Positions 6,617-37,273 are shown, numbered from the stretch's first letter. The stretch is DNA of 42,469 nucleotides from a virus (IMGVR_UViG_2541047705_000011); one strand, 5' to 3'. Notes: generated by a model from the sequence alone, not told the origin. Numbers and translations: made by a program.

Positions 6617-6633
6617 ATTACCTTTCAGGTAAT
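6617..6633. promoter_or_regulatory. Operator-like palindrome ATTACC-TTTCA-GGTAAT (perfect)
   Basis: Perfect 6-bp inverted arms, 5-bp spacer; between tailspike start and the LexA-box gene. Confidence 0.6.
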
Positions 6634-6669
6634 TTGCAAAACGTGCTGGATAGCAAACAAATTATTTGA

Positions 6670-6689
6670 TACTGTATAAATATACAGTT
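6670..6689. promoter_or_regulatory. LexA box (SOS operator)
   Basis: TACTGTATAAATATACAGTT, 18/20 to consensus TACTGTATATATATACAGTA (CTGT-N8-ACAG); 20 nt upstream of the 6709 start; possible -35 TTGATA overlaps. Confidence 0.75.
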
Positions 6690-6708
6690 ATTGCATGGAG
6701 AAGATAAG

Positions 6709-6966
6709 ATGCAGCAGTATCACTATCCACTGGAAGACGGATTTACCGAAAGGATTCACACGCCGGGAGGCGTCAGGTCACTGGTGGAGGGATCGCACTT
6801 GATGAAATTACTCCGGGATCTCGATAAGGATGGATTTAATGTCGATGGCCCACTTGCCGAACTGACTGCACTGATTAACTACGTCACCAGCTCACAGATG
6901 TCTATGCAGGATCTGCAAACACATCTCGACTATTGTGCCGAACAATTACGAAAACAAACCCGGTAA
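6709..6966 (+). CDS. Small antirepressor-like protein (homologous to C-terminal domain of the BRO antirepressor at 8113-8805)
   Basis: 85 aa from ATG 6709 (track ORF starts at TTG 6691); RBS GGAGAAG; aligns with the last ~60 aa of the BRO protein. Confidence 0.6.
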   Translation: MQQYHYPLEDGFTERIHTPGGVRSLVEGSHLMKLLRDLDKDGFNVDGPLAELTALINYVTSSQMSMQDLQTHLDYCAEQLRKQTR

Positions 6967-6972
6967 ATTTAA

Positions 6973-6990
6973 AGGCCGCAAGAGCGGCCT
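6973..6990 (-). terminator. Hairpin terminator between convergent genes
   Basis: AGGCCGC-AAGA-GCGGCCT; T-rich on minus strand downstream; overlaps the 6989-7717 stop codon. Confidence 0.45.
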
Positions 6991-7717
6991 ATCGTTTCGC
7001 TTTGTGCTCGTCCCAGCACGTTTTGCACCATGCCATTAAGCCGTCCGCATTTTGATTATTAGGGTAAAAGCTGGTCCGTTTTCTGCGGACATTACAAATT
7101 GGGCACCACTTCATATGGCGTGTATTCTTTGGACCATCGAGACACCTTGCACACCACTTAGTCAATCCATCTGGATTTTTTGACGATTTCCGGAATTTGT
7201 CATATGGAAGGTTTATTCTGCATCGCAAACACTGCTTGCGGCCACTTGAAACTCTGTTAGCTGATTCTTCTTTTGGCGGCGATACAGAAGGTATTCTTGC
7301 TGGCTCTGATACTGCCTGAGGTGCTTTTTTAGATGACTGAGACGATATGTCATCACCAGGGAATCTTCCATGATATGCCGGACGCGTTGACACTCCAGGT
7401 GGAAGCTCAGCTGTAAACGGCTTTGGCTGAATCAGTTGCCTCTCTTTTGCTAACTCCTGCTGTTTATAATATGTCTGGATTACCGCACTATCATAAGCAG
7501 GAGGTACGGAAATATCAGGCGCGTTACCTCCAGTTTTTTGAAACTGAGTAGATGTGTGTTCTATCACCTGTGTACGACTAATCGTTACCTCCCCATCTTC
7601 GGTCTTTATCGTTTTGTTCTGATTAACGACCGTACGATCAGAGATCTTAGTCTTGTTCTGGTTGATAACGTAAATAATCACCGCAACCACACCAACAACT
7701 ATCCAGAAAACTTCCAT
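6989..7717 (-). CDS. Membrane-anchored protein with two C-terminal zinc-ribbon repeats, unknown function
   Basis: N-terminal TM helix, Pro/Ser-rich linker, then CLRC..x22..WCARC and CPIC..x21..WCKTC; RBS GAGGAAAAG. Confidence 0.6.
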   Translation of the reverse strand: MEVFWIVVGVVAVIIYVINQNKTKISDRTVVNQNKTIKTEDGEVTISRTQVIEHTSTQFQKTGGNAPDISVPPAYDSAVIQTYYKQQELAKERQLIQPKPFTAELPPGVSTRPAYHGRFPGDDISSQSSKKAPQAVSEPARIPSVSPPKEESANRVSSGRKQCLRCRINLPYDKFRKSSKNPDGLTKWCARCLDGPKNTRHMKWCPICNVRRKRTSFYPNNQNADGLMAWCKTCWDEHKAKR

Positions 7718-7736
7718 TGCTTTTCCTCACAATAAC

Positions 7737-7753
7737 ATTACCTTAAAGGTAAT
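7737..7753. promoter_or_regulatory. Operator-like palindrome ATTACC-TTAAA-GGTAAT (perfect)
   Basis: 20 nt upstream of the 7717 start codon; possible -35 TTGATC 17 nt from TACCTT on minus strand. Confidence 0.6.
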
Positions 7754-7785
7754 ATCTTGCTTTCAGGTGATCAAGCGTTAAACGC

Positions 7786-7807
7786 AATCAACCAAATACG
7801 GTTGATT
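7786..7807. promoter_or_regulatory. Second-type palindrome AATCAACC-N6-GGTTGATT
   Basis: Perfect 8-bp inverted repeats with 6-bp spacer, between two ATTACC/GGTAAT sites. Confidence 0.4.
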
Positions 7808-7829
7808 TTAATATTTCTTCGCGTTTATC

Positions 7830-7846
7830 ATTACCTTTGCGGTAAA
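7830..7846. promoter_or_regulatory. Operator-like palindrome ATTACC-TTTGC-GGTAAA (11/12 arms)
   Basis: Same motif family; upstream of structured leader and BRO gene. Confidence 0.5.
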
Positions 7847-7864
7847 TTTACATCGCACTCCTCT

Positions 7865-7958
7865 TGTGCCATAGTAATCGGGCACTGGCAAAATCCAGTG
7901 CCGGGATTGGTCTCCCGGATTACTACAGAGGCACATATGCCGCATAAGCGGTTTTTTT
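7865..7958 (+). other. Candidate structured RNA/leader: three-way junction fold followed by short hairpin and T7 run
   Basis: Nested complementarity TGTGCC/GGCACA, GTAATC/GATTAC, GGCACTGG/CCAGTGCC, GGGA/TCCC; then CCGC-ATAA-GCGG plus TTTTTTT; about 155 nt upstream of BRO start. Confidence 0.3.
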
Positions 7959-8112
7959 ATGTGTAAAGCGCACCTATTCTATGGTGGGCTGTGTGGGGGC
8001 ACCGAAAGGTGCGCCGGGTTCCTTTGTAGCCGGTAAGACCAACTCTGCACAGTTCACCACCATCTGATTGGTCTCAGCGGTGGTGATTAACCTAACTACA
8101 AAGGTGATCGCT

Positions 8113-8805
8113 ATGAATACCAAACCTTCCATCTTTTCCTTTGAGTCATCCTGCCAGATCCGTATGTTCATGATTGACGGAGAACCTTGGTTTGTCACCA
8201 AAGATGTGTGCAATGCTTTGAATATTGATGTTACACAAGCGAGAAAACTTGATAAAAAAGGCTGGAACAAAAAGGGGCTGTATTCAATACAGACCCCTGG
8301 TGGAATACAAGAACTATCCATCGTTTCAGAATCAGGTCTCTACATCCTTATTCTGCGTTGCAAAGAGGCAATGACTGAGGGAACGAGAGCATTCAGATTT
8401 CTTGAATGGGTTACAGGTGAGGTTCTTCCTCAGATCCGCCGCACCGGAAGTTACATTAAAAACTCGCTCCCGCAGGAAGAACGCATAAAGATGGTTGCCG
8501 ACCAGGTAGCCAACGCCACGGCGTCAGCAGTAATGCAGGCGATGAAGATAGAGAACAAAACCTACAGTGCCCCACTGAAGCCCGGCTACCGTAGCCTGAT
8601 TCATTCGCCGTCTGGTGTTCTCGGCCTGACGGAGAACTCACTGCTGATGAATCTGCTGAACCAGTTACAGGACGACGGGCACGACGTATCGGGCGCGGCG
8701 GCGGAGCTGACCACCATGTTCTGCTACATCGTCGGTGTGAGCAAATGCCTGCGTGATATCCAGACCCACGCGGAGTACATCAACGACAAGGCAGGGTTCT
8801 TCTGA
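8113..8805 (+). CDS. BRO-N domain antirepressor
   Basis: BRO-N motif FSFESSCQIRMFMIDGEPWFVTKDVCNAL; RBS AAGGTGA; start trimmed to ATG 8113; C-terminal domain homologous to the 6709-6966 protein. Confidence 0.75.
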   Translation: MNTKPSIFSFESSCQIRMFMIDGEPWFVTKDVCNALNIDVTQARKLDKKGWNKKGLYSIQTPGGIQELSIVSESGLYILILRCKEAMTEGTRAFRFLEWVTGEVLPQIRRTGSYIKNSLPQEERIKMVADQVANATASAVMQAMKIENKTYSAPLKPGYRSLIHSPSGVLGLTENSLLMNLLNQLQDDGHDVSGAAAELTTMFCYIVGVSKCLRDIQTHAEYINDKAGFF

Positions 8806-8875
8806 CGGCGGCGGCACAGGGACGTGCCTTTAAATAATTCTGTACAGATTGCAGACTGGGGGTGAATAGCGTACT

Positions 8876-8892
8876 ATTACCTCAAGGGTAAG
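8876..8892. promoter_or_regulatory. Operator-like palindrome ATTACC-TCAAG-GGTAAG
   Basis: 11/12 arm match; 59 nt upstream of the 8951 start. Confidence 0.5.
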
Positions 8893-8950
8893 AAAGCATT
8901 TTTAATCTTCCCTTCAAAACGCGTCCTGTAGCCAAACATGGGAGGACGAA

Positions 8951-9583
8951 ATGAGAACAAATACAACAAGAAAAGCGATGCCATACATTATCCCAGAAGC
9001 AGATTTCGATAGAAAACTGAACATGTCTGAGAAGAACACTAGTCACACCGAAAGCTACTTAGCGAAAGGTGTGGTTGATTTCGTTCTTCCGGGATTCACA
9101 ACACCTTATGGTTATCGCCTTGTAAAATCTTGTAATGGCGATCATTACAGAATGATTACTACCAGCGATACTCCAGAAACGGTGTATGCGGTTAAGTTAA
9201 TCTTTCGGGAAGATATCGTCGAAGCCAAAAGAACATGTACGCAGATCATGGTATGGCGTACGCCTAATGTTATTCATGACCGTGCTGTTCATGGTTTGCC
9301 TCAGATTTTTTTTCAGTTCTTCCTAGAGCAATATGCGATCGTTGTATCTGATGAGCAACAAACAATCGATGGGAGAAGATTCTGGGAAAGAATGATTTCT
9401 TGGGCTATAAACACCCCGGGATATAATGTATACGTTTCAGATGGCTCTGAAGAAGATAGACCTCTTAGCTTCATGACATCATGGGATGATTTCTATAGCC
9501 AGTGGGCTGATTTCTGTTGGGGCAGTGATAAAGATGTGCATACCCACAGACTACTGGTTATAAGCAAAGATAAACTGCATTAA
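8951..9583 (+). CDS. Hypothetical protein (210 aa), accessory/moron gene, no recognisable family
   Basis: ORF track; RBS GGGAGG; AT-rich; flanked by operator-like site upstream and terminator downstream. Confidence 0.6.
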   Translation: MRTNTTRKAMPYIIPEADFDRKLNMSEKNTSHTESYLAKGVVDFVLPGFTTPYGYRLVKSCNGDHYRMITTSDTPETVYAVKLIFREDIVEAKRTCTQIMVWRTPNVIHDRAVHGLPQIFFQFFLEQYAIVVSDEQQTIDGRRFWERMISWAINTPGYNVYVSDGSEEDRPLSFMTSWDDFYSQWADFCWGSDKDVHTHRLLVISKDKLH

Positions 9584-9588
9584 TAGAA

Positions 9589-9609
9589 GCCCGCAGCGCG
9601 GGCTTTTTT
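9589..9609 (+). terminator. Rho-independent terminator
   Basis: GCCCGC-AGC-GCGGGC followed by T6. Confidence 0.75.
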
Positions 9610-9681
9610 GTGGACGAAACAAAAGTCAGTGCTACACTCATTGACGCCACATTGAGGTGGCTTATAGATGGAAATTTCACA

Positions 9682-9843
9682 ATGAAAAAAGCATTTGCTG
9701 CACTGTTCGTTTTGTTGTCTCTGGTAGCTTCAACTCAGGCCTTTGCCGGTCGTTGTCAGCACGACAGCGATACTGCCGCTGACGGCTCCCGCTGCGGTGG
9801 GCGTTCTGCGGATTCCCGCCCGGGTGGCGGTGGCATTCGTTAA
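9682..9843 (+). CDS. Small secreted Gly/Arg-rich peptide (53 aa)
   Basis: Start at MKKAFAALFVLLSLVASTQAFA (signal peptide); putative promoter TTGACG-N16-TATAGA upstream; ORF-track N-terminal extension discarded. Confidence 0.45.
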   Translation: MKKAFAALFVLLSLVASTQAFAGRCQHDSDTAADGSRCGGRSADSRPGGGGIR

Positions 9844-9849
9844 AAACAA

Positions 9850-9865
9850 GGCCGCGAAAGCGGCC
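9850..9865 (-). terminator. Hairpin GGCCGC-GAAA-GCGGCC, terminator for lipoprotein gene (minus), weaker for plus
   Basis: GNRA-type loop; on minus strand followed by TTGTTTTTA. Confidence 0.55.
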
Positions 9866-9866
9866 T

Positions 9867-9878
9867 GTGACATGTCAC
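9867..9878. repeat. Perfect 12-bp palindrome GTGACATGTCAC (copy 1 of 3)
   Basis: Overlaps lipoprotein stop codon; identical copies at 28357-28368 and 30808-30819. Confidence 0.8.
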
Positions 9879-10255
9879 GCAACGCAATTATTACCGCGCC
9901 ATGTAACATTTTTAATAATCTTATCAGCACCAAACTCAACGTAAACAGAGCAACTGAAATGGAGTGTATAACCGCCATCAGTTGTTGCGTATGTGTTTGA
10001 ATATATAGTATTACCAATTAGATTAGACGTAGTATTATACGTTGTGGTTTGTGGTACGTTATAACTACCAGAGCTTGAGTAAACATACACTCTGTTTCCA
10101 TCTGGAGATGTAAGCTCTCCCTGAGGATACCCCCACTGCTGAACCATTGCGTCTATACTCTGCCCGCGCCACGTAAGCATATTTCTTTCAAACTGTGCAA
10201 CTGACTGGCATCCAACGAGAAGCATAAATCCAAAAATCAAAAATACTTTTCTCAT
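9875..10255 (-). CDS. Lipoprotein (126 aa), candidate superinfection-exclusion/moron protein
   Basis: Start MRKVFLIFGFMLLVGC (lipobox); RBS AGGGG; Thr/Ser/Tyr/Asn-rich mature part; IS1 lies 66 bp upstream of its start. Confidence 0.6.
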   Translation of the reverse strand: MRKVFLIFGFMLLVGCQSVAQFERNMLTWRGQSIDAMVQQWGYPQGELTSPDGNRVYVYSSSGSYNVPQTTTYNTTSNLIGNTIYSNTYATTDGGYTLHFSCSVYVEFGADKIIKNVTWRGNNCVA

Positions 10256-10375
10256 AATTACCCCTATCATGGAAAAACAGCACCAATCCACAAATTAACT
10301 AGTTATTTTATTATTCTTCCGGTGATGCTGCCAACTTACTGATTTAGTGTATGATGGTGTTTTTGAGGTGCTCCA

Positions 10376-10651
10376 GTGGCTTCTGTTTCTATCAGCTGTC
10401 CCTCCTGTTCAGCTACTGACGGGGTGGTGCGTAACGGCAAAAGCACCGCCGGACATCAGCGCTATCTCTGCTCTCACTGCCGTAAAACATGGCAACTGCA
10501 GTTCACTTACACCGCTTCTCAACCCGGTACGCACCAGAAAATCATTGATATGGCCATGAATGGCGTTGGATGCCGGGCAACCGCCCGCATTATGGGCGTT
10601 GGCCTCAACACGATTTTACGTCACTTAAAAAACTCAGGCCGCAGTCGGTAA
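10376..10651 (+). CDS. insA: IS1 InsA
   Basis: Sequence recognised as IS1 InsA ([32 protein letters not shown]...). Confidence 0.95.
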
Positions 10652-11073
10652 CCTCGCGCATACAGCCGGGCAGTGACGTCATCGTCTGCGCGGAAATGGA
10701 CGAACAGTGGGGCTATGTCGGGGCTAAATCGCGCCAGCGCTGGCTGTTTTACGCGTATGACAGTCTCCGGAAGACGGTTGTTGCGCACGTATTCGGTGAA
10801 CGCACTATGGCGACGCTGGGGCGTCTTATGAGCCTGCTGTCACCCTTTGACGTGGTGATATGGATGACGGATGGCTGGCCGCTGTATGAATCCCGCCTGA
10901 AGGGAAAGCTGCACGTAATCAGCAAGCGATATACGCAGCGAATTGAGCGGCATAACCTGAATCTGAGGCAGCACCTGGCACGGCTGGGACGGAAGTCGCT
11001 GTCGTTCTCAAAATCGGTGGAGCTGCATGACAAAGTCATCGGGCATTATCTGAACATAAAACACTATCAATAA
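10570..11073 (+). CDS. insB: IS1 InsB reading frame (expressed as InsAB' fusion by -1 frameshift)
   Basis: Sequence recognised as IS1 InsB; slippery TTAAAAAACTC upstream in the InsA frame. Confidence 0.9.
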
Positions 11074-11117
11074 GTTGGAGTCATTACCTATTCTTCCGAA
11101 CAATACAATTCCGAATA

Positions 11118-11240: not shown

Positions 11241-11251
11241 CATATCTCCTT

Positions 11252-13726: not shown

Positions 13727-13731
13727 TTAAT

Positions 13732-19053: not shown

Positions 19054-21524
19054 CAGAATCCCCCAACAGTAAGGCGAGGAATAACGGCAAGAACAGACAG
19101 CGGCAACGGGTCAAGCTGACGGATTTTTACACGTCCGTTTTTGCCCCAGTTACTGTCCAGTTTCACTTCTACTTTTCCGGTAGCATCATCAACAGGATCA
19201 TCGTAGAACTCGAATTCACGCTGTGGATATTCGTACCATTTACCGCCGGGCGTAGTCGCCCAGATGCCGCGACTGGCATTCACAACCAGAGTAACGGACG
19301 GGATCACCTGTTTTTTGTCCAGCAGCGTTTCCTGTCCGTTAATGTTGATATCCAGTGTTTCGAATTCAGCAGTTATTGGCAGGCCGATGTGCACTACAGC
19401 CCCCGGTGATTCCAGCGTGACGGCACCTCCGGAAACCACTTTCTGTGGTTCCACGTTCGCATCAGAGAGGATGTTTACGGTCTGGCCTTCAAGATGAGAC
19501 AAGCCGCCAAATGTCCGGCGCGCCATCTGCCAGTTCGTGGTGGCCACATTCCTGAGGGATGGCGGGACGTTCCTGTTAGCACGAACCACTACAGCGGTAT
19601 TGCTGGTTACAGAAATAATGTCGCAACGTAATTCTTTTGACACCTCATCGCCAGTATCAGGATCAGTTCCGGTATAAGGGAACTGTAGTTGCGCGCCGAC
19701 ATCACTACTGGTGAAGTACGCACCACCAGAAACACTGATTGTATATTCCGCGCGGTAATCCCATTCGCCAGAACCACCAGTGATGGTCATCGTTCTGTCA
19801 GACGTATTTCTTCCATCATAGCTAAGGCCAGAATCAACAAAGAAAGCATCTTCATCGCTGGTAAATAAACGGCTGGACAGTCGCTCGATGTATCTCACTG
19901 TTTGCCCGTTAACGGTTCGGTTAATGACGAAATACACCGCATCTTCATTGCCTTCGCTGATACTGCATGTGCTTTCATATTTTCCGGTACTGGACTGTGG
20001 TGCCCATGCAAAAACCTGTTGATCACGCAAATAGGTCATCACCAGTAATTTACCGTCATCACGAATGCAGAAGGCGCTGGAGTAAGGGACTATCGAGAAG
20101 CACCAGTCAACAATGCTGTGCTTCTGAAAAAGATGATTGGCAAGGATGGTCAGGTCGTTCCCCTGATAGCCGTCAACATCGAATGAGTAGGCCAGATCAC
20201 GGACAACGCTGCCTTTCTCCTGGACGAACAGAGCAATATTCGCCACGGCAATTGGCGGGACGTTGCTTGAGCCATTTGATCCCTGAGAGCTGAATGCAAA
20301 TGATGATGGGGTTAACACTTTGTTCTGGTCGCCGGTGATGACGTACTCACCTCCGGAAGTCAGCGCCACCAGAGAACCAACATCAATCAGGTGGCGGATC
20401 TCATTAACCTGACGTCCGGCATAGGTGTAGATAATTCTGTCGTCATCCTGCGTAGGATTGCTTTTGCCAAAATCCTTATAATCCCCGGTACGGCTGGCCC
20501 AGATAGTCTGAGGAAACGCAGTCGATGCGGCGAAGTAAAGACGTTGTTGATAATAAACAACAGTGCCAGGATAACCATTAACACTGTTCCAGGCATATTT
20601 AGCCCATTTATAGCTGGCATTATCCTCGCCCACGACCTGCGAAGGGATATAGGAAATCACCTCGGCAGTTGCAGTAGTTCCATTTGCAGCAGTGATACGG
20701 GCAATGCCAAAACCACTGTGCAGATATTCCCACTCAATGCCAGTATCATCATCACCGGATCCGCCCCAGCCATCCCATGATGTGCCTTCTGTATGCGAAG
20801 GGCGCAAAGTACCTGTTTTGCCTGCTGTAACGGCGCGATAGTAGTTACTGTCTGCACGGCGAATATCGCCAATCGACGTACTCTTACTGGTTTCCCATAC
20901 CGGCACAGAATCCACTGCAGGCTGTTCCAGATAGAACAATTTGCCTACCTGCTCCGCGCCAAAAATAGAGGCGCTTGCCGTTAGCGTAATTGTCCCGGTG
21001 CTGGCGCTGGCATAAACCGTCACTGACTCGTCAATATTGATATCTTCAAATGGCCCGTTCTTCGTTACCACATCAACCAGTTGCCAGTTGTCATGCGCAT
21101 AGCGGCGCAACTCTTTCGGCGGGTATGCCGGATGAACCAGCGTAAGCACGTCTGCGCTTTGCGTGAATTTAATTCGGAACAGATCGGCTTCAGTATATGG
21201 CGTGGCAATTTCATAAATAACATTGCTGCTGTTCAGCACCAACGCACCATCTTTGATAACGCGCATGTACTGGTGTCCAAACTCCAGAGCATAAGTCTGA
21301 ACCGTCGAGAACTGGAACGGGATCAGGCGGCATTTCCGATTTGGGTATTTGGCGGCACCGACAAAACGCGTACCAGGTCGATTCTCAACGCCGCCATACT
21401 GCCGCACGATAAAGTTATCGCACTTGCGCAATGCCACCTGGTACTTAGCCATGTCAATACGCCCGTACAACGACGGTCCAATCTCACCACCGGCAAAGCT
21501 GGGCTGGATCCAACTGATAGCCAT
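19053..21524 (-). CDS. Tail tubular protein B-like (nozzle)
   Basis: 823 aa directly downstream of tubular-A-like gene; size and position match podovirus tail-tube protein B. Confidence 0.55.
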   Translation of the reverse strand: MAISWIQPSFAGGEIGPSLYGRIDMAKYQVALRKCDNFIVRQYGGVENRPGTRFVGAAKYPNRKCRLIPFQFSTVQTYALEFGHQYMRVIKDGALVLNSSNVIYEIATPYTEADLFRIKFTQSADVLTLVHPAYPPKELRRYAHDNWQLVDVVTKNGPFEDINIDESVTVYASASTGTITLTASASIFGAEQVGKLFYLEQPAVDSVPVWETSKSTSIGDIRRADSNYYRAVTAGKTGTLRPSHTEGTSWDGWGGSGDDDTGIEWEYLHSGFGIARITAANGTTATAEVISYIPSQVVGEDNASYKWAKYAWNSVNGYPGTVVYYQQRLYFAASTAFPQTIWASRTGDYKDFGKSNPTQDDDRIIYTYAGRQVNEIRHLIDVGSLVALTSGGEYVITGDQNKVLTPSSFAFSSQGSNGSSNVPPIAVANIALFVQEKGSVVRDLAYSFDVDGYQGNDLTILANHLFQKHSIVDWCFSIVPYSSAFCIRDDGKLLVMTYLRDQQVFAWAPQSSTGKYESTCSISEGNEDAVYFVINRTVNGQTVRYIERLSSRLFTSDEDAFFVDSGLSYDGRNTSDRTMTITGGSGEWDYRAEYTISVSGGAYFTSSDVGAQLQFPYTGTDPDTGDEVSKELRCDIISVTSNTAVVVRANRNVPPSLRNVATTNWQMARRTFGGLSHLEGQTVNILSDANVEPQKVVSGGAVTLESPGAVVHIGLPITAEFETLDININGQETLLDKKQVIPSVTLVVNASRGIWATTPGGKWYEYPQREFEFYDDPVDDATGKVEVKLDSNWGKNGRVKIRQLDPLPLSVLAVIPRLTVGGF

Positions 21525-22847: not shown

Positions 22848-22848
22848 C

Positions 22849-27298: not shown

Positions 27299-27327
27299 TT
27301 GACATTTAACGCACAAATTATTACCTT
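27299..27327 (+). promoter_or_regulatory. Sigma70-like promoter directed toward tRNA-Arg
   Basis: -35 TTGACA, 17-bp spacer, -10 TACCTT, overlapped by an operator-like palindrome. Confidence 0.5.
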
Positions 27328-27657: not shown

Positions 27658-27734
27658 GTGGCATTAGCTCAGTCGGACAGAGCAACCGCCTTCTAAGCGG
27701 TTGGTCGCAGGTTCGAATCCTGCATGCCACGCCA
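27658..27734 (+). tRNA. Phage-encoded tRNA-Arg (anticodon UCU)
   Basis: 77-nt cloverleaf: acceptor GTGGCAT/ATGCCAC, D-stem GCTC/GAGC, anticodon stem ACCGC/GCGGT with loop CTTCTAA, T-arm GCAGG-TTCGAAT-CCTGC, discriminator G, encoded CCA. Confidence 0.9.
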
Positions 27735-28356: not shown

Positions 28357-28368
28357 GTGACATGTCAC
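28357..28368. repeat. Perfect 12-bp palindrome GTGACATGTCAC (copy 2 of 3)
   Basis: 5 nt after moron stop codon, before its terminator. Confidence 0.8.
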
Positions 28369-29918: not shown

Positions 29919-30511
29919 TGATTGCCATCCTGACGTTCTTTCAGTCTCTTCCTGGCTGCCGCTATGCGATCAGCAATTGTCACATTCACATTAACATCCA
30001 GGCGTTCTTTGAATGCGTTGACGTCGACGTGCTTACCAATCAGTTCGAGGTTCTTCACCTTGTCAGGCCATTTAATTTTTTTGAGGATTGTCTCTATCGA
30101 ATCCTCGTTCATGTTCATGATGGTCGATGACAGATCAAAGCCGCTAAGCGTAGTGCGCCAGATTTTCGGCCACTCTCGGATTGGCTTAAGGCTACCATCG
30201 TCGTTGAGGATGTCGATCACGTCCATCTGGTCGATCTCCACCAGGCGCATGAGAACGTAATCAGCACTGACGCGCATTCGTTTGTTGCGCTCCTCCATCA
30301 ACTCGGCAATCCGTTTCTGAATGCGTTCATCGCGCATCATGACACTGGCTTTAACTGCCGCTGTATTTGGGGAGAATCCTGCATTAATCGCTGCCTGAGT
30401 CTGGTTTTCAGGCGTTTTGATGTATGACTGGCAATAAGCCTCCTGCATTGCTGTTAGTGGCTTAAATTGCGTTGATTTGCGTTTATAGGTTTTAGGTTCA
30501 GCAGGCATCAT
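29915..30511 (-). CDS. Terminase small subunit
   Basis: Start trimmed to ATG 30511 (MMPAEPKTYKRK); track ORF starts at TTG 30589 with no RBS; overlaps large-subunit start. Confidence 0.65.
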   Translation of the reverse strand: MMPAEPKTYKRKSTQFKPLTAMQEAYCQSYIKTPENQTQAAINAGFSPNTAAVKASVMMRDERIQKRIAELMEERNKRMRVSADYVLMRLVEIDQMDVIDILNDDGSLKPIREWPKIWRTTLSGFDLSSTIMNMNEDSIETILKKIKWPDKVKNLELIGKHVDVNAFKERLDVNVNVTIADRIAAARKRLKERQDGNQ

Positions 30512-30518
30512 AACCACC

Positions 30519-30547
30519 GTGGTAATAGTTACCGTTGTGGTAATAGT
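30519..30547 (-). repeat. Direct repeats GTGGTAATAGT x2 (18-bp period) upstream of terminase small subunit
   Basis: Copies at 30519-30529 and 30537-30547; contain the GGTAAT half-site; lie between an upstream terminator and the TerS start. Confidence 0.5.
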
Positions 30548-30553
30548 ACCATG

Positions 30554-30580: not shown

Positions 30581-30585
30581 AGTAT

Positions 30586-30798: not shown

Positions 30799-30807
30799 AA
30801 CACCTTC

Positions 30808-30819
30808 GTGACATGTCAC
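30808..30819. repeat. Perfect 12-bp palindrome GTGACATGTCAC (copy 3 of 3)
   Basis: Overlaps stop codon of the 30816-31157 gene. Confidence 0.8.
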
Positions 30820-32592: not shown

Positions 32593-32593
32593 A

Positions 32594-33184
32594 TCACTCT
32601 CCTTTGATGCGAATGCCAGCGGTGCGTGGCACATTAACTTCCACGATGCGCACAGTTGGTTTGTACATCTCAATCGCTGTCAGCCAGTCAGCGCCAGTCA
32701 TGCGCTTTTCTGCATCGCCATTAGTCCAATTAACCGGTACACCAATAGCCTTCATCGCGATTTCTATTTCCCCGGCAATGGCGCTTTTCCCGCAACCAGT
32801 AAAACCAGATACAACGACCAGAACTTCACCTTTGGCTGGTTTTATTTCCCGCGCTTCCAGTTCTGCTATGCGCTTACTTCCATCCGAGATAACACCTTCG
32901 TAATACTCACGCTGCTCGTTGAGTTTTGATTTTGCTTTCTCAAGCTCAACTCTCAGCTTCCCTACCGTTAGCGCAATTTCCTCGTTCTCCTGGTCGCGGG
33001 ATTTGATGTATTGCTGGTTCCTTTCCAGTTCATCCAGCAGTGCCAGCGCGATATCTGGCGAAAAGTGCTTCATAAAATCGTTAAGCGCATTAATTCGCTG
33101 ATCGAAGGGCATTACAGGTGCTTCACCAGCAATTTTTGTTTTTTCAGCGATTTCACGAAGCTTTTGATAATCAATCTTGCTCAC
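32594..33184 (-). CDS. Hypothetical coiled-coil protein with Walker-A-like GFTGCGKS motif
   Basis: 196 aa; N-terminal coiled coil; C-terminal VVVSGFTGCGKSAIAG. Confidence 0.45.
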   Translation of the reverse strand: MSKIDYQKLREIAEKTKIAGEAPVMPFDQRINALNDFMKHFSPDIALALLDELERNQQYIKSRDQENEEIALTVGKLRVELEKAKSKLNEQREYYEGVISDGSKRIAELEAREIKPAKGEVLVVVSGFTGCGKSAIAGEIEIAMKAIGVPVNWTNGDAEKRMTGADWLTAIEMYKPTVRIVEVNVPRTAGIRIKGE

Positions 33185-33681: not shown

Positions 33682-33742
33682 CTTTACCCTCGCTTATCCA
33701 CATAACTTATTGATTACATTGATAACTAAAAAGATCGTCGAT

Positions 33743-34087
33743 TCAGAACTCTTCGATGTTCCAGCCACCACCTGCTTTCTTTGGTTTAACCGTTACCCCG
33801 ATGATTCGGAACGGATACTGATCTGCGGCGACTTTGGTTTTCACCCTGGCGTCGTCGGTCCAGAAACCTTTCACTTCGTGCAGTTCCATCTCGCCGGTGG
33901 CGAGCATCACAGCAAAATCGGGCGTATAGAACGTGTTGTCAGCTAACCGCAGCTTGATACCCTCGAATCGATACCAGGCGATTTCCCCTGCACGTTTACG
34001 CTGCTCAAGGTGCTGGCAATACGCAGATTCTGTTTTGTTCATCTGGCCTGTTTTGAGTCGACCAAGAGCCTGTATCTGTTTTCTCAT
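33743..34087 (-). CDS. DUF1064 family protein
   Basis: 114 aa; pattern YRFEGIKLRLADNTFYTPDF..HEVKGFWTDDARVK recalled as DUF1064. Confidence 0.55.
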   Translation of the reverse strand: MRKQIQALGRLKTGQMNKTESAYCQHLEQRKRAGEIAWYRFEGIKLRLADNTFYTPDFAVMLATGEMELHEVKGFWTDDARVKTKVAADQYPFRIIGVTVKPKKAGGGWNIEEF

Positions 34088-34089
34088 GA

Positions 34090-34106
34090 TTTACCCATGA
34101 GGTAAT
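34090..34106. promoter_or_regulatory. Operator-like palindrome TTTACC-CATGA-GGTAAT
   Basis: 3 nt upstream of the DUF1064 start codon. Confidence 0.5.
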
Positions 34107-34151
34107 TAAAAACCACATAAGACACGAAATCAATAGATTTCAGAATATTTT

Positions 34152-34168
34152 ATTACCCAGCAGGTAAT
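34152..34168. promoter_or_regulatory. Operator-like palindrome ATTACC-CAGCA-GGTAAT (perfect)
   Basis: In the P/DUF1064 intergenic region. Confidence 0.6.
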
Positions 34169-34204
34169 CATCGAGACGTAAAAAAATGCGCTATCGCGCT
34201 GGTA

Positions 34205-35005
34205 TTACTTGATAAATCCTGCCGCCTTTCCCCGCCTGTATTCCTCCATCAGCCACTGCGCCGGTGTTATTCCCCCCAGGGTGGCGGCGTTAGGCATGCA
34301 CCCGAAACTTCGCCCTGGTGGATGGTAAACGTCTCTCCCTGTGTCCGGAGGCGTACTCATGGGTTCTGGCTTTGCCTGTATGCTGATCACCGGATCGGGT
34401 ATCTGCTGTCCGGAAGCCACCTTTTTCGCCCAATCATCGAGCAGCCTGCGCGCGTGTTTCTCAACCTCAATCTCGCTAAGCTGGCGCTGATACATTGCAC
34501 GGCGGGTATCACATACGACCCAGTACATAACCGGATGCCGCCACGGGAATCTTTCGGGACCACCAGGATATAAACTTTTTTCCTTGCTGTACCGGTGAAA
34601 CTCCGTCATCACATCGTCAATGGTGACGCCAAGAACCATCTTGCTGTCTTTGCACCACTTGATGAATTGCCCTGGCGACGGCCAGAACGGAGAATCACTG
34701 GCGCGGGCGTGGCGCATACCAGCAGAAACCTGTTCACGGGTTCGGATCCCACCTTCGGCAAACGCAGCAATCCACTGCTGTTTTGCAGCAACTTCCTGCT
34801 CTGGCGTCTTCAGGTTGGTTACCACTGCCGCCGGAAACAGTTGTTTCAACTGTTTGAAAAGGGCATCAACAAGCCTCTCTGCTGACATGTTCACTACGTT
34901 GTCATTGTTGGTGTACTGATGCTCATAACCTGACATGCGAGAAAGGGCTTCTCCGTCACGGTTTTGTATTGCGGTAAAAACGTTGTTCACAAGAAATCCT
35001 CCCAT
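34205..35005 (-). CDS. Replication protein P-like (helicase loader)
   Basis: Lambda-P-like core SAGMRHARASDSPFWPSPGQF; overlaps O-like stop. Confidence 0.8.
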   Translation of the reverse strand: MGGFLVNNVFTAIQNRDGEALSRMSGYEHQYTNNDNVVNMSAERLVDALFKQLKQLFPAAVVTNLKTPEQEVAAKQQWIAAFAEGGIRTREQVSAGMRHARASDSPFWPSPGQFIKWCKDSKMVLGVTIDDVMTEFHRYSKEKSLYPGGPERFPWRHPVMYWVVCDTRRAMYQRQLSEIEVEKHARRLLDDWAKKVASGQQIPDPVISIQAKPEPMSTPPDTGRDVYHPPGRSFGCMPNAATLGGITPAQWLMEEYRRGKAAGFIK

Positions 35006-35802
35006 GCTTCAGGGCTGTTCCAGTGCGGAACGTTGTTATCAGGTAATGTTGATTGCTTCTGTCTGCTAATCTGCAGCCGCCTTGCCAGCTTCTGCTCCCA
35101 CTGTGCCTGATGGTATGCCTTACCCTCAGCCATCCAGTAAATTCTGAACTCTGCAAGTTCCTGTGCCGTTGGCAGACTGTCCAGGTAGATTCCCTGCAAT
35201 GAGCTTTTCCGAAGAAAGTCATCTGATGGCTGCCATTGTTCATGCATGACAAATTTGCCTAATTGCCCTGGCCCACCAGGAGGAACAAAGTTATTCATCA
35301 CGGCGTTGTTTGCGCCGGGGTCATGAGGCACAGAATCCCCGGTTTTTGTCCTGCTCTCCCTCTCTTGGTTAAATGACTGGTTATATGACTGGTTCTGGAT
35401 CCCGTTTTTGGGATCATTCAACATCCCGTTTTTGGGATCATTCAACATCCCGTTTTTGGGTATATTCCCGTTTTCGGTAACATTACCGTTTTCGGGTTCA
35501 TTACCCCCTTCCCGGTTGCCTTTAATGTTCCCGTTTTTGGTTATATTAAGAGAGAAAACCCGCACTCTTTTCGTCGCTCCCTTTCTCTCTCCGGTATCTG
35601 AAATAAGCCCCATTTTCATGAGCGATATAAGCCCGGCCTGCACGGTTTTTTTATTCAGGCAAGTGTCTTTAACGAGGCGTTCTATGCTGGGGTAGCAGAG
35701 GTTATATTCATCGGCTCTGTCAGCCATCGAGAGCAGTATGAGCTTTAATGACGAGCTACCTGGATCTGTCTCCCAGGCCCAATCTGTTGCATGTCTGCTC
35801 AT
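34987..35802 (-). CDS. Replication initiator O-like protein with internal ori iterons
   Basis: RBS GGAG; HTH-like N-terminus; repetitive KNGxxNDPKNG middle encoded by DNA iterons. Confidence 0.75.
   Translation of the reverse strand: MSRHATDWAWETDPGSSSLKLILLSMADRADEYNLCYPSIERLVKDTCLNKKTVQAGLISLMKMGLISDTGERKGATKRVRVFSLNITKNGNIKGNREGGNEPENGNVTENGNIPKNGMLNDPKNGMLNDPKNGIQNQSYNQSFNQERESRTKTGDSVPHDPGANNAVMNNFVPPGGPGQLGKFVMHEQWQPSDDFLRKSSLQGIYLDSLPTAQELAEFRIYWMAEGKAYHQAQWEQKLARRLQISRQKQSTLPDNNVPHWNSPEAWEDFL
35401..35541. repeat. Iteron array (candidate origin) inside the O-like gene
   Basis: About six copies of CCCGTTTT(T/C)GG at 18-24 bp spacing, two as perfect 24-bp tandem ATCCCGTTTTTGGGATCATTCAAC. 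Confidence 0.65.
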
Positions 35803-35817
35803 GATTAATCTCCGCTA

Positions 35818-36018
35818 TCAGCTTGAATGTTGTGGGGAGGAATTAATCATGATCTGCTTAATCTCTGCCCTGATGCGACGGTTTGATTCCATGGTGCACT
35901 CAACACAGTGTCCGTTGTAAACCCAGCGTTCACTGTCATGTCCGTGCTTACATGGTTTTCCGGTGTAGTAGCGTTTAAGTCCGCGCTTTGCGGCATCAAT
36001 ACGTGTAATGATTTCCAT
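35818..36018 (-). CDS. Small zinc-finger protein in the CII position (66 aa)
   Basis: CKHGH..x10..CVEC motif; start ATG 36018 or 36054, both with weak RBS. Confidence 0.45.
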   Translation of the reverse strand: MEIITRIDAAKRGLKRYYTGKPCKHGHDSERWVYNGHCVECTMESNRRIRAEIKQIMINSSPQHSS

Positions 36019-36097
36019 GGTAAGCCCTGTTATTAGTATTGGGATTACGGTCATTTTGTGCTGACACAAAAAAAAGATCAACCAGATTTGGTTTTTT

Positions 36098-36114
36098 ATT
36101 ACCTTTGAGGTGCG
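36098..36114. promoter_or_regulatory. Degenerate operator-like site ATTACC-TTTGA-GGTGCG
   Basis: Perfect left arm, 3/6 right arm; just downstream of the Cro-side terminator. Confidence 0.3.
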
Positions 36115-36128
36115 AATAGATATGAAAA

Positions 36129-36146
36129 GACCGCCGGATGGCGGTC
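36129..36146 (-). terminator. Rho-independent terminator after Cro-like gene
   Basis: GACCGCC-ATCC-GGCGGTC then TTTTCAT on minus strand. Confidence 0.65.
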
Positions 36147-36168
36147 TACAGAGGGTTGTGGCTGGATA

Positions 36169-36399
36169 TCATGAGTAGAAGAAGTATGCCAGTTCTGCTT
36201 TTGAGCGCAACCATTGTCTTGATTTACAGGCTTTAAAAAGCCCATTCATCAATACCTTACCTGGCATTTTGCGCTTACCTGTTAAGTGAGTCTGGATATA
36301 GTGACTCGTCGTTCCGGCTTCCTGTGCGAAGGCTTCACGCTCATCCGGAGTGAGTGCAAGCCAGTGCTTTTTGAAATCGAAATGTCCGTTATCGCTCAT
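36169..36399 (-). CDS. Cro-like HTH regulator
   Basis: 76 aa; HTH FAQEAGTTSHYIQTHLTG; divergent from CI-like gene, points toward O/P. Confidence 0.65.
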   Translation of the reverse strand: MSDNGHFDFKKHWLALTPDEREAFAQEAGTTSHYIQTHLTGKRKMPGKVLMNGLFKACKSRQWLRSKAELAYFFYS

Positions 36400-36434
36400 A
36401 GCTATTGCCTGATATTTATTTCAGATAATAAATA

Positions 36435-36499
36435 TTCACCCATAAGGTAACAAAAATCAAGGATAGTTACCTATGAGGTGCATTTACCTGTTGGGTAAT
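36435..36499. promoter_or_regulatory. Immunity-region operator cluster (three sites)
   Basis: 36435-36451 TTCACC-CATAA-GGTAAC; 36466-36482 GTTACC-TATGA-GGTGCA; 36483-36499 TTTACC-TGTTG-GGTAAT; candidate Cro-side promoter -35 TTGTTA / -10 TATTAT on minus strand. Confidence 0.6.
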
Positions 36500-36553
36500 A
36501 TTGCTTTAAATTGAATCATCTACTGATTCATATATGAGGCGATTTTCCAGAAA

Positions 36554-37138
36554 ATGAAAAGTATCCAGGACGTCCGCAGGCAAAATCTCAACGACTTGAT
36601 CGACCGTGAATTCAATGGTGTTCAGACGCGGATGGCAGAAAAACTTGGAACTCAGGCAAATCTGGTAAACCGCTGGGCTCTTGGCAAGAAGGTTATCGGC
36701 GACCAGGTTGCGCGAAAAATTGAAGCTGCCGCCAATAAACCCCGTAACTGGCTTGATATCGATCGCTCGCTTTCTCAGGAAGGTTTTCAGCCTGTCGGCC
36801 CAAGCGACATTGGTCAGCTGGCGGCTCACAACCTGGAACGCTGGATGAGCGAAAGCCGCGACCTTTCAACACAGGGAAAACTTCACCGCGCATCCGGCGT
36901 CGCCCAGGTGACAATCAGCCGCCTGTTAAACAATGAGGTCAGCGTTTCCATTTCCACCCTGGAGAATGTTGCATCCGCATTCGGGCGTCACGGATATGAA
37001 CTACTGATTCACCCGCACGACCCTGCGACTATCAACTATGACCGCTCGCGCTACGCATTGTTACCCGAAACCGAGAAAGCAAAGATCGAAAGTTACATTG
37101 AATTTGTCATCAACCAGAACGAAAAAAACAAACAATAA
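36554..37138 (+). CDS. CI-like repressor with two HTH domains and no recognisable S24 peptidase domain
   Basis: 194 aa; HTH segments TRMAEKLGTQANLVNRW and LHRASGVAQVTISRLLN; no Ser-Lys autocleavage module seen; weak SD. Confidence 0.65.
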   Translation: MKSIQDVRRQNLNDLIDREFNGVQTRMAEKLGTQANLVNRWALGKKVIGDQVARKIEAAANKPRNWLDIDRSLSQEGFQPVGPSDIGQLAAHNLERWMSESRDLSTQGKLHRASGVAQVTISRLLNNEVSVSISTLENVASAFGRHGYELLIHPHDPATINYDRSRYALLPETEKAKIESYIEFVINQNEKNKQ

Positions 37139-37160
37139 AATCATATTTTTCAGTAAGTAA

Positions 37161-37182
37161 GCCGCCTTCTGGCGGCTTTTTT
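37161..37182 (+). terminator. Rho-independent terminator after CI-like gene
   Basis: GCCGCC-TTCT-GGCGGC followed by T6. Confidence 0.8.
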
Positions 37183-37194
37183 ATTGCCTGTTCG

Positions 37195-37211
37195 ATTACC
37201 TAATGGGTAAT
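37195..37211. promoter_or_regulatory. Operator-like palindrome ATTACC-TAATG-GGTAAT (perfect)
   Basis: 19 nt upstream of the early promoter -35. Confidence 0.6.
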
Positions 37212-37229
37212 TTTTTTAACTCATATCTA

Positions 37230-37258
37230 TTGACATCAAACCAGATACGCATAATTAT
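37230..37258 (+). promoter_or_regulatory. Early promoter for the plus-strand early operon
   Basis: -35 TTGACA, 17-bp spacer, -10 AATTAT; flanked by operator-like palindromes. Confidence 0.55.
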
Positions 37259-37273
37259 TACCTCAACGGTAAC
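37257..37273. promoter_or_regulatory. Operator-like palindrome ATTACC-TCAAC-GGTAAC
   Basis: Overlaps -10/+1 of the early promoter. Confidence 0.55.

What the first reader, a model, noticed from the sequence alone, without database searches (positions are those of the whole stretch)
6617..37273. One 17-bp palindrome (ATTACC-N5-GGTAAT) marks 13 intergenic sites across the prophage
Perfect or near-perfect copies sit at the immunity region (3 sites), flank the early promoter (2), lie in the P/DUF1064 gap (2), overlap the -10 of the tRNA-Arg promoter, and precede the tailspike/LexA-box gene, the zinc-ribbon gene, the BRO antirepressor and the 210-aa moron. In at least three places an arm doubles as a TACCTT -10 element 17 bp from a TTGAC/TTGAT -35. 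This looks like a single repressor regulon far more dispersed than the two-operator lambda paradigm, and it includes accessory genes and both antirepressor loci.
Basis: seen in the sequence. Interest (0 to 1): 0.8.

Follow-up and report, generated by a model that had tools for sequence, protein, structure and literature searches.

The report
Dispersed repressor operators of ε15-like prophage
The repeated 17-bp palindrome is real and is almost certainly the binding site of this ε15/φV10-type prophage's main repressor, placed at nearly every lytic promoter, but the same sites are already annotated as repressor-binding sites in the type phage ε15, so this is a known system, not a discovery.

Summary
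ATTACC-N5-GGTAAT occurs 12 times at ≤1 mismatch against 0.06 expected, and all 12 copies lie in the 8.5% of the window that is non-coding. Three weaker copies sit at 36098, 36435 and 36466.

The window is a Uetakevirus (ε15/φV10-like) prophage. Its repressor (36554-37138) is 100% identical to that of φV10 and ZX5, and is a full-length homologue of the structurally solved SPC32H Rep. The small gene beside site 6617 is the SPC32H-type antirepressor Ant, behind a perfect LexA box.

The same motif is enriched 12-18-fold (14-18 matches against 0.8-1.5 expected) in six relatives from four host genera, at the same map positions. In the ε15 GenBank record the perfect copies are already annotated as "protein_bind: repressor".

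Operators overlap promoters in a geometry conserved between distant clades. Two promoters carry operator pairs exactly 62 bp apart, in 13 of 14 cases across the family.

Only the TACCTT -10 detail is partly wrong.

By-products:
- an isrK/C4-RNA module upstream of the Bro antirepressor;
- a Bro-N::Ant-domain fusion;
- an operator-bearing moron cassette also found in a lambdoid phage;
- a second conserved palindrome at operon ends.

The parts
6617..6633 (.). Perfect operator in the divergent gap between tailspike (3394-6513, -) and ant. It lies 17 bp upstream of the inferred P_ant -35.
   Evidence: homologous site annotated as repressor-binding in ε15 (19895-19911); same layout in SPC32H
6672..6687 (.). 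Perfect LexA box CTGTATAAATATACAG overlapping the inferred ant promoter
   Evidence: conserved position in SPC32H
6709..6966 (+). ant: small SPC32H-type antirepressor (85 aa)
   Evidence: PDB 5D50_E, E 5e-47; start codon fixed
7737..7753 (.). Perfect operator 19 nt upstream of the 242-aa zinc-ribbon gene (6989-7717, -). TTGATC-17-TACCTT on the - strand.
7802..7831 (+). Promoter-like TTGATT-18-TATCAT; its -10 overlaps operator 7830 by 2 bp
7830..7846 (.). Operator (1 mismatch) at the start of the isrK-C4-bro transcription unit
7882..7958 (+). isrK-like Hfq-binding sRNA with terminator
   Evidence: 74.7 bits; gathering score 50
7977..8064 (+). C4 antisense RNA (P1/P7 immI type)
   Evidence: 78.6 bits; gathering score 45
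8113..8805 (+). Bro-N antirepressor whose C-terminal residues 149-222 are an Ant-like domain
   Evidence: 42% identity to Ant, E 1e-15
8876..8892 (.). Operator (1 mismatch) overlapped by a TACTAT -10, 58 nt upstream of the 210-aa moron (8951-9583, +)
   Evidence: the same module sits upstream of the homologue in lambdoid phage LLS
27320..27336 (.). Operator (1 mismatch) between gp3/portal (-) and tRNA-Arg plus a 139-aa gene (+). TTGACA (27299-27304)-17-TACCTT (27322-27327) points toward the tRNA.
   Evidence: conserved in SPC32H; annotated as a repressor site in ε15 (2931-2947)
30510..30544 (.). Two operators with starts 18 bp apart (30510-30526 and 30528-30544). They sit directly upstream of the terS ATG (30508, -) and downstream of the early-right terminator (30563-80). 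An extended -10, TGGTACTAT, lies on the - strand at 30551-30543.
   Evidence: same layout in ε15, φV10, Tyrion, TL-2011b and SPC32H
34090..34168 (-). Operator pair (34152-34168 and 34090-34106, centres 62 bp apart) bracketing the - strand promoter TTGATT (34133-28)-17-TTTAAT (34110-05). The DUF1064 ATG follows 2 nt after the proximal operator.
   Evidence: 62-bp spacing in 7 of 7 genomes
36098..36114 (.). Weak site (good half GGTAAT) after the cro-like gene's terminator
   Evidence: counterparts in φV10 at 33111 and Tyrion at 35364
36435..36499 (.). Tripartite OR: 36483-36499 (1 mismatch, rep-proximal), 36466-36482 (weak) and 36435-36451 (TTCACC variant). The last overlaps the -35 and spacer of the P_R-like promoter, which runs 36453-36425 on the - strand.
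   Evidence: same 17 and 30-31 bp spacing in ε15 and SPC32H
36169..36399 (-). cro-like gene (76 aa)
   Evidence: phrog_35, transcriptional repressor
36554..37138 (+). rep: SPC32H-type non-cleavable repressor (194 aa)
37195..37273 (+). OL pair (37195-37211 and 37257-37273, centres 62 bp apart) bracketing the P_L-like promoter TTGACA-17-AATTAT (37230-37258)
   Evidence: conserved in SPC32H

Best explanation
The palindromes are most likely the operators of the prophage's master repressor Rep (36554-37138). Rep is an SPC32H/ε15-type protein with an N-terminal HTH domain and a C-terminal tetramerisation and Ant-binding domain, and it has no autocleavage domain.

In the lysogen, Rep would occupy an operator at nearly every lytic transcription unit:
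- the early-left promoter (37195/37257);
- the divergent P_R/rep region (36435-36499);
- a second early-right promoter after the replication genes (34090/34152);
- the terS-terL late operon (30510/30528);
- the gp3-portal / tRNA-Arg divergent region (27320);
- the tailspike/ant gap (6617);
- three accessory units (7737, 7830, 8876).

Repression would work by promoter occlusion. The -10 hexamer overlaps operator bases 1-2, so the operator centre falls at about +1. At two promoters a second operator lies exactly 62 bp upstream, about six helical turns. This would let the two DNA-binding pairs of one Rep tetramer hold both sites.

Induction would not involve Rep cleavage. DNA damage removes LexA from the box at 6672-6687, Ant is made, and Ant strips Rep from DNA. 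A second antirepressor, a Bro-N::Ant-domain fusion, is itself behind a Rep operator plus isrK and C4 RNAs. It could therefore only reinforce de-repression once it has begun.

Shown here: motif enrichment, intergenic placement, positional and geometric conservation, and protein homologies. Inferred: actual Rep occupancy of each site, tetramer bridging, and the order of events.
For: Enrichment: 12 sites against 0.06 expected, all non-coding.

Protein homology: Rep matches PDB 5D50_A over residues 1-190 (E 4e-42), and no S24 peptidase domain is found. Ant matches 5D50_E (E 5e-47), behind a perfect LexA box.

Prior annotation: the ε15 record marks seven homologous sites as 'protein_bind repressor', and all seven are perfect ATTACC-N5-GGTAAT.

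Family-wide pattern: the motif gives 14-18 matches (≤2 mismatches) against 0.8-1.5 expected in ε15, φV10, Tyrion, BUCT711 and TL-2011b, and a PWM scan of SPC32H finds it at the same positions. The map positions are shared. The Rep recognition helix NLVNRW is invariant although overall identity is only about 43%.

Promoter overlap: TTGACA-17-AATTAT|TACC at 37230-37258 and TTGATT-18-TATCAT|TACC at 7802-7831. The same Op-18-[-35]-17-[-10] layout occurs in SPC32H.

One operator per unit: a lysis-cassette operator is present only in the relatives where an opposite-strand insert splits the tailspike from the lysis genes.

Experiment on an identical protein: overexpression of the ZX5 repressor abolished free phage and cut holin and endolysin mRNA by more than 99.9% (PMC9782041).

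Literature: Rep binds palindromic DNA as a tetramer with DNA-binding domain pairs drawn from different dimers (PMC9638917). Its tetramerisation domain resembles DNA-looping TetDloop domains (PMC9986798).
Against: I could access no direct binding data (EMSA, footprint or ChIP) for any site in this phage type. The primary ε15 and SPC32H papers are not held.

The Cro-like protein is even better conserved (78%), so conservation cannot show which protein reads the motif.

Several sites lack a convincing σ70 promoter on the strand of the late genes they precede (6617 toward the tailspike, 27320 toward gp3). How Rep would silence those genes is therefore not shown.

The promoter calls are consensus matches only. 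The scan found about as many as in shuffled sequence.
Confidence: 0.85

Rival explanations
1. The Cro-like protein (36169-36399) is the main reader of the sites, or an additional one. As in lambda, Cro and the repressor would share operators, and the dispersed sites might serve Cro-mediated turn-down of transcription during lytic growth.
For: The Cro-like protein matches a phage 'transcriptional repressor' family (phrog_35, E 9e-13). It is 78% identical between the E. coli and Salmonella clades, with an invariant HTH-like stretch AGTTSHYIQ. This conservation parallels that of the motif. The P_R-proximal operator keeps a variant half-site, TTCACC, in both clades, which could encode differential Rep/Cro affinity.
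Against: ε15's curators assigned the sites to the repressor. Rep is reported to bind palindromic sites as a tetramer. The fixed 62-bp pairs fit a tetramer with two DNA-binding units better than a 76-aa Cro. Shared use by both proteins is not excluded. The confidence given is for Cro as the exclusive reader.
Confidence: 0.07
2. The motif is bound by a host factor or by another phage regulator (AlpA-like at 39724-39972, or PerC-like at 40082-40381). It would then act as an activator site for late and accessory promoters, not as a repressor operator.
For: Upstream members of the 62-bp pairs, and the site upstream of P_ant, are centred near -62, a classic activator position. One good copy persists upstream of the 210-aa moron in lambdoid phage LLS. 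LLS has no Rep homologue and no other good sites.
Against: The sites cluster most densely on both flanks of rep itself. The motif co-occurs with Rep across four host genera. Proximal sites cover the -10/+1 region, which is a repressing position. The LLS copy is explained more simply by transfer of a moron cassette from a Uetakevirus.
Confidence: 0.04
3. The repeats are a selfish or structural repeat (for example a miniature mobile element, or terminator or recombination hot-spots) with no role in transcription control.
For: The sites sit at module boundaries of a mosaic genome, and one copy travels with a moron between phage types.
Against: Only the arms are conserved. The 5-bp spacer and the flanks vary freely, which is the signature of a protein-binding site. 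The register with the -10 hexamers and the 62-bp pair spacing are fixed even where the intervening sequence has diverged.
Confidence: 0.02

Closest known systems
Salmonella phage ε15 repressor gp38 and its annotated operators (GenBank AY150271.2; Kropinski et al. 2007, Virology 369:234, not readable here)
   Same: The 17-bp motif is identical. The map positions are the same (terS, gp3/portal, ant/tailspike gap, OL, replication-gene gap), and these sites are annotated 'protein_bind: repressor'. The repressor is homologous with an invariant recognition helix.
   Different: Rep is only 42% identical overall. ε15 has three strong OL sites where the window has two. The window adds operators at accessory units that ε15 lacks (7737, 7830 with isrK/C4/bro, and 8876). 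The window lacks the lysis-cassette site that ε15 has.
Salmonella phage SPC32H Rep-Ant-LexA antirepression switch (Kim & Ryu 2013 J Virol; Kim et al. 2016 PNAS; PDB 5D50 and 5D4Z)
   Same: Rep and Ant are full-length homologues. A LexA box sits at the ant promoter with a Rep operator 17 bp upstream of the -35. The promoter-operator geometry and the 62-bp pairs are the same.
   Different: The window carries a second antirepressor, a Bro-N::Ant-domain fusion behind isrK and C4 RNAs, which is absent from the SPC32H annotation.
Phage P1/P7 C1 repressor with many dispersed operators, and the immI module (C1 operator, c4 RNA, ant)
   Same: One repressor controls many scattered transcription units (PMC1934351). 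An antirepressor operon combines a primary-repressor operator with a C4 antisense RNA (the P1 immI layout is from my own knowledge).
   Different: P1 operators are asymmetric, whereas these are palindromic. Rep gave no Pfam or PDB match to a P1 C1 protein. The virion type and lifestyle differ: an integrated podovirus here, a plasmid myovirus for P1.
Mycobacteriophage L5/Bxb1 gp71-type repressors with about 30 'stoperators'
   Same: Many repressor sites are spread over the genome (PMC1934351).
   Different: L5 sites are asymmetric 13-mers. Besides repressing early promoters, they also stop elongation of transcripts (PMC1934351). Here the sites are symmetric, strictly intergenic, and positioned on promoters.
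Lambda CI/Cro switch with tripartite OL and OR
   Same: Operators are 17-bp palindromes. OR is tripartite and lies between divergent repressor and cro-like genes. Operators flank the early-left promoter.
   Different: There is no S24 autocleavage domain, and induction is by antirepressor. Operators also sit at late, tRNA and accessory promoters. No Q-type antiterminator is evident among the gene annotations of the relatives.

Membership tests
Uetakevirus (ε15/SPC32H-type) Rep operator set | Repressor homologous over its full length to SPC32H Rep / ε15 gp38 | tested here: met
   PDB 5D50_A, E 4e-42, residues 1-190 of 194. 42% identity to ε15 gp38 and 100% to φV10/ZX5.
Uetakevirus (ε15/SPC32H-type) Rep operator set | Motif identical to the sites annotated as repressor-binding in ε15 | tested here: met
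   All seven ε15 'protein_bind repressor' features are perfect ATTACC-N5-GGTAAT.
Uetakevirus (ε15/SPC32H-type) Rep operator set | Sites at the same map positions as in relatives | tested here: met
   terS pair, gp3/portal, ant/tailspike, OL, OR and the replication-gap pair are matched in 6-7 genomes.
Uetakevirus (ε15/SPC32H-type) Rep operator set | LexA-controlled small antirepressor Ant in place of repressor autocleavage | tested here: met
   Ant matches 5D50_E at E 5e-47. Perfect LexA box at 6672-6687. No S24 peptidase domain in Rep.
Uetakevirus (ε15/SPC32H-type) Rep operator set | Physical binding of Rep to each site | not testable with these tools
   Needs EMSA, footprinting or ChIP. The primary papers are not held.
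Lambda-type CI/Cro immunity region | RecA-stimulated autocleavable repressor (S24 peptidase C-terminal domain) | tested here: not met
   Pfam finds only HTH families. The C-terminal half aligns to the SPC32H Rep tetramerisation and Ant-binding domain.
Lambda-type CI/Cro immunity region | Operators confined to OL and OR flanking the repressor gene | tested here: not met
   Nine of the 12 strong sites lie outside the immunity region.
Lambda-type CI/Cro immunity region | Tripartite OR between divergent repressor and cro genes | tested here: inconclusive
   There is one strong site and two weak ones, with starts 17 and 31 bp apart, matching ε15's three sites. Occupancy is unknown.
P1/P7 C1 regulon with immI | C4 antisense RNA upstream of an antirepressor gene, downstream of a primary-repressor operator | tested here: met
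   Rfam C4 at 7977-8064 (78.6 bits) lies between operator 7830 and bro at 8113. The same arrangement is present in φV10, TL-2011b and Tyrion.
P1/P7 C1 regulon with immI | C1-family repressor and asymmetric 17-bp operators | tested here: not met
   Sites are palindromic. Rep's only solved relatives are the SPC32H Rep chains, and its Pfam hits are generic HTH families.
L5-type stoperators | Asymmetric sites that also stop elongation of transcripts, as well as repressing early promoters | tested here: not met
   All 12 sites are symmetric, intergenic and promoter-associated. The L5 description is taken from PMC1934351.

The most novel reading that the evidence does not exclude
The most novel reading not excluded has two parts.

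First, Uetakeviruses would run a 'flat', antiterminator-free lysis-lysogeny circuit. A single non-cleavable tetrameric repressor would directly gate every lytic transcription unit, late operons included. At key promoters it would do so by clamping the promoter between two operators held at an invariant 62 bp (centres at about -62 and +1) by the two DNA-binding pairs of one tetramer.

Second, promoter-plus-operator cassettes would travel with morons, even into lambdoid phages such as LLS. A resident Uetakevirus could then regulate genes of co-resident prophages in trans.
Probability: 0.3. Interest if true: 0.5.

Novelty: already known. Interest (0 to 1): 0.22.

Why it matters
The finding correctly recovers, from raw sequence alone, the regulatory logic of a clinically common prophage family: φV10/TL-2011b-type prophages of E. 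coli O157 and O103, and ε15/SPC32H of Salmonella. It gives a complete operator map for the φV10-type genome, whose GenBank record annotates none.

It does not change what is known. The type phage already carries these annotations, and dispersed-operator repressors are classical in P1 and L5.

Modest added value comes from four points:
- the strictly conserved 62-bp operator-pair architecture, which gives a testable link to the published tetrameric 'trans' DNA-binding model;
- the apparent rule of one operator per lytic transcription unit;
- the layered control of a second, Ant-domain-bearing Bro antirepressor by a Rep operator plus isrK and C4 RNAs;
- an operator-bearing moron cassette shared with a lambdoid phage.

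Tried and rejected
(1) I tried to read the primary papers: ε15 genome (PMID 17825342 / PMC2698709), SPC32H J Virol 2013 (PMC3807360) and PNAS 2016 (PMC4983836). None is held. Full-text searches for the motif, for 'Uetakevirus operator' and for 'epsilon15 operator' found no accessible paper that describes the sites. Statements about Rep biochemistry therefore rest on secondary accounts and on my memory of the abstracts.

Both proteins keep invariant HTH segments across the genus, so the test cannot discriminate.

(3) I looked for a distant Rep N-terminal-domain relative with a changed motif, in Pseudomonas phage PseuP_224. Only 3-mismatch hits appeared, at chance level (17 of 200 shuffles). This was uninformative.

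It fits 27320(+) and 7737(-) only. Five other sites use a hexamer ending on operator bases 1-2.

(5) I looked for a Rep site upstream of the lysis cassette (3088-3393), as seen in φV10, ε15, SPC32H and Tyrion. None is present. I interpret this as co-transcription with the tailspike gene.

(6) The 2-mismatch hits at 2728 and 18046 are dismissed. They are coding, have broken cores, and are conserved only as coding sequence or a Shine-Dalgarno element in relatives.

(7) Most fetched loci did not appear in the Python sandbox. Cross-genome scans were therefore done with the DNA search.

Full report
**Observation.** ATTACC-N5-GGTAAT occurs 4 times perfectly (6617, 7737, 34152, 37195). At ≤1 mismatch there are 12 copies against 0.06 expected from dinucleotide shuffles, and at ≤2 mismatches 14 against 1.17. 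I built a gene map from the ORF list and the annotations of relatives. On that map all 12 good copies lie wholly in the 8.5% of the window that is non-coding (P≈1e-13). An unbiased count of hyphenated palindromes puts TTACC-N5-GGTAA far ahead of any other, with 11 copies against 3-4 for the runners-up. A PWM scan adds weaker copies at 36098, 36435 and, by eye, 36466. The two 2-mismatch hits in coding sequence (2728, 18046) look like chance.

**What the window is.** The window is a Uetakevirus (ε15/φV10-like) prophage of E. coli. It runs from the lysis-side morons at the left end to the integrase start codon at the right end. The ORF at 36554-37138 is 100% identical to the repressors of φV10, ZX5, phiv142-3 and others. 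It aligns over residues 1-190 to the solved SPC32H repressor (PDB 5D50_A, E 4e-42). Pfam finds only HTH families in it and no S24 peptidase domain. The small gene at 6709-6966 is the SPC32H-type antirepressor Ant (5D50_E, E 5e-47). A perfect LexA box, CTGTATAAATATACAG, precedes it at 6672-6687, and SPC32H has the same layout. From my memory of Kim & Ryu 2013, LexA represses ant in SPC32H, and Ant rather than RecA-stimulated cleavage inactivates Rep. Secondary sources confirm that Rep binds palindromic DNA as a tetramer whose DNA-binding domain pairs come from different dimers, and that Ant breaks the tetramer (PMC9638917; PMC9986798). Overexpression of the identical ZX5 repressor abolished free phage and reduced holin and endolysin transcripts by more than 99.9% (PMC9782041).

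**The sites are already annotated in the type phage.** The ε15 GenBank record (AY150271.2) carries seven 'protein_bind: repressor / lysogeny' features. Each is a perfect ATTACC-N5-GGTAAT. They lie upstream of terS, upstream of gp3/portal, between gp19 (the Ant homologue) and the tailspike, three times beside the repressor gene, and once in the gap after the replication genes. These are the same map positions as in the window.

**The pattern is genus-wide.** At ≤2 mismatches the motif gives 14-18 matches against 0.8-1.5 expected in ε15, φV10, Tyrion (Enterobacter), BUCT711 (Klebsiella) and TL-2011b. A PWM scan of SPC32H finds it at the same positions. This holds although Rep is only 42-45% identical between clades. 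The Rep alignment explains it. The N-terminal HTH keeps an invariant recognition helix, N36-L-V-N-R-W41, along with A28, E29, K46, A53 and R54.

**Anatomy and mechanism.** The promoter scan finds two promoter-like sites that overlap operators. TTGACA-17-AATTAT (37230-37258, 10 of 12 matches) has its last two bases as the first two of operator 37257. TTGATT-18-TATCAT (7802-7831) overlaps operator 7830 in the same way. My own scoring gives the same register at three further sites:
- 34090 on the - strand, TTGATT-17-TTTAAT;
- 8876, with a TACTAT -10;
- the terS-proximal pair, with an extended -10 TGGTACTAT on the - strand.

With the -10 ending on operator base 2, the operator centre falls at about +1, which is a position for occlusion. 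At the early-left promoter and at the promoter after the replication genes, a second operator lies 18 bp upstream of the -35. This gives a centre-to-centre distance of 17+18+6+17+4 = 62 bp. SPC32H has the same layout at both promoters although the intervening sequence has diverged. The spacing is exactly 62 bp in 7 of 7 genomes at the replication gap and in 6 of 7 at OL, the exception being 63 bp in BUCT711. Sixty-two base pairs is about six helical turns. I infer, but have not shown, that one Rep tetramer holds both operators.

The upstream operator at P_ant (6617) sits at a similar distance, 17 bp from the inferred -35. There the LexA box takes the place of the proximal operator.

One is the promoter facing tRNA-Arg (TTGACA-17-TACCTT, 27299-27327), which is conserved in SPC32H. 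The other is the 242-aa gene promoter, on the - strand at 7737.

**Why the sites are dispersed.** The lytic genes are broken into many transcription units by inserts on the opposite strand: the tRNA and its moron, the ant and moron block, and the serotype-conversion genes. Almost every lytic unit begins with an operator. One comparison supports a rule of one operator per unit. φV10, ε15, SPC32H and Tyrion have an opposite-strand insert between the tailspike and the lysis cassette, and all four have a site upstream of the lysis genes. The window, TL-2011b and BUCT711 have these genes co-directional, and all three lack it.

**The second antirepressor.** Between operator 7830 and the Bro-N gene (true ATG at 8113) Rfam finds two RNAs: an isrK-like sRNA at 7882-7958 and a C4 antisense RNA at 7977-8064. 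The same order, operator then isrK then C4 then bro, holds in φV10, TL-2011b and Tyrion. Residues 149-222 of the Bro protein are 42% identical to Ant (E 1e-15). It is therefore a Bro-N::Ant-domain fusion and probably targets the same Rep domain. This mirrors the P1 immI arrangement of primary-repressor operator, c4 and ant; the P1 layout is from my own knowledge.

**Rivals.** The Cro-like protein (phrog_35) is 78% conserved across clades and may share the operators, as Cro does in lambda. Conservation cannot separate the two readers. A conserved TTCACC variant at the P_R-proximal operator hints at differential affinity. A host factor or an activator is unlikely, because the sites cluster around rep, co-occur with Rep across four host genera, and cover the -10/+1 region. 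A non-regulatory repeat is unlikely, because only the arms are conserved while the spacing and register are fixed.

**Comparison and novelty.** This is the same system as in ε15 and SPC32H. Functionally it resembles the dispersed-operator repressors of P1/P7, L5/Bxb1 and φ105 (PMC1934351), but its operators are symmetric and promoter-bound. It is not a lambda-type switch: it has no S24 domain, its operators are not confined to OL and OR, and no Q-like gene is annotated in its relatives. I rate it 'already known'.

**Limits.** I had no access to binding data. The primary ε15 and SPC32H papers are not held. Promoter assignments are consensus matches only, at frequencies similar to shuffled sequence. 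How the tailspike and gp3-portal units are transcribed and silenced remains unclear.

Noticed in passing
window 7882-7958 and 7977-8064 (+): Rfam finds an isrK-like sRNA and a C4 antisense RNA in the 280-nt leader between the Rep-operated promoter (7802-7846) and the Bro antirepressor gene. This is a P1 immI-like / Gifsy-1 isrK-like module. The same order is present in φV10, TL-2011b and Tyrion.
   Followed up: partly
window 8113-8805 (+) compared with 6709-6966 (+): The Bro-N 'antirepressor' carries a C-terminal domain (residues 149-222) 42% identical to the small Ant protein (E 1e-15). The prophage therefore encodes two Ant domains, one controlled by LexA and one by a Rep operator plus C4 RNA.
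   Followed up: partly
window 9867-9878, 28357-28368, 30808-30819: A second perfect palindrome, GTGACATGTCAC, occurs three times. Each copy follows the last gene of a lytic operon, and the copies at 9867 and 28357 adjoin an intrinsic terminator. Two or three copies occur at equivalent places in ε15, SPC32H, φV10, Tyrion, BUCT711 and TL-2011b. Its function is unknown.
   Followed up: partly
window 8870-8892; L010 (Escherichia phage LLS) 42046-42068: The 210-aa moron's homologue (84% aa identity) in the lambdoid siphovirus LLS keeps the TACTAT -10 and the ATTACC-N5-GGTAA operator upstream. LLS has no Rep homologue and no other good site. The promoter-operator-gene cassette appears to move between phage types.
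   Followed up: partly
window 3088-3393: There is no Rep site upstream of the lysis cassette, unlike φV10, ε15, SPC32H and Tyrion. This correlates with the absence of an opposite-strand oac or serotype-conversion insert between the tailspike and the lysis genes, as also in TL-2011b and BUCT711.
   Followed up: partly
window 30509-30544 and 34088-34106 (- strand genes): Operators abut start codons: 1 nt before the terS ATG and 2 nt before the DUF1064 ATG. The right half-site (GGTGGT or GGGTAA) probably doubles as the Shine-Dalgarno sequence. The same is seen in ε15 and SPC32H.
   Followed up: no
window 36435-36451; ε15 33387; SPC32H 34436: The cro-proximal OR operator keeps the same deviant left arm, TTCACC, in both the E. 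coli and Salmonella clades. This suggests a selected difference in affinity (Rep versus Cro?) and not decay.
   Followed up: no
window 10570-11073 (+) and 9875-10291 (-): A transposase-like ORF (phrog_720) and a 138-aa ORF are inserted between the end of the late operon and the moron block. This region has no Rep site.
   Followed up: no
φV10 record L004 2672-2923 versus window 27658-27734: φV10's annotated CDS p04 lies antisense to an unannotated tRNA-Arg(UCU) gene, which Rfam finds at L004 2856-2929. This is probably a mis-annotation in the public record.
   Followed up: no
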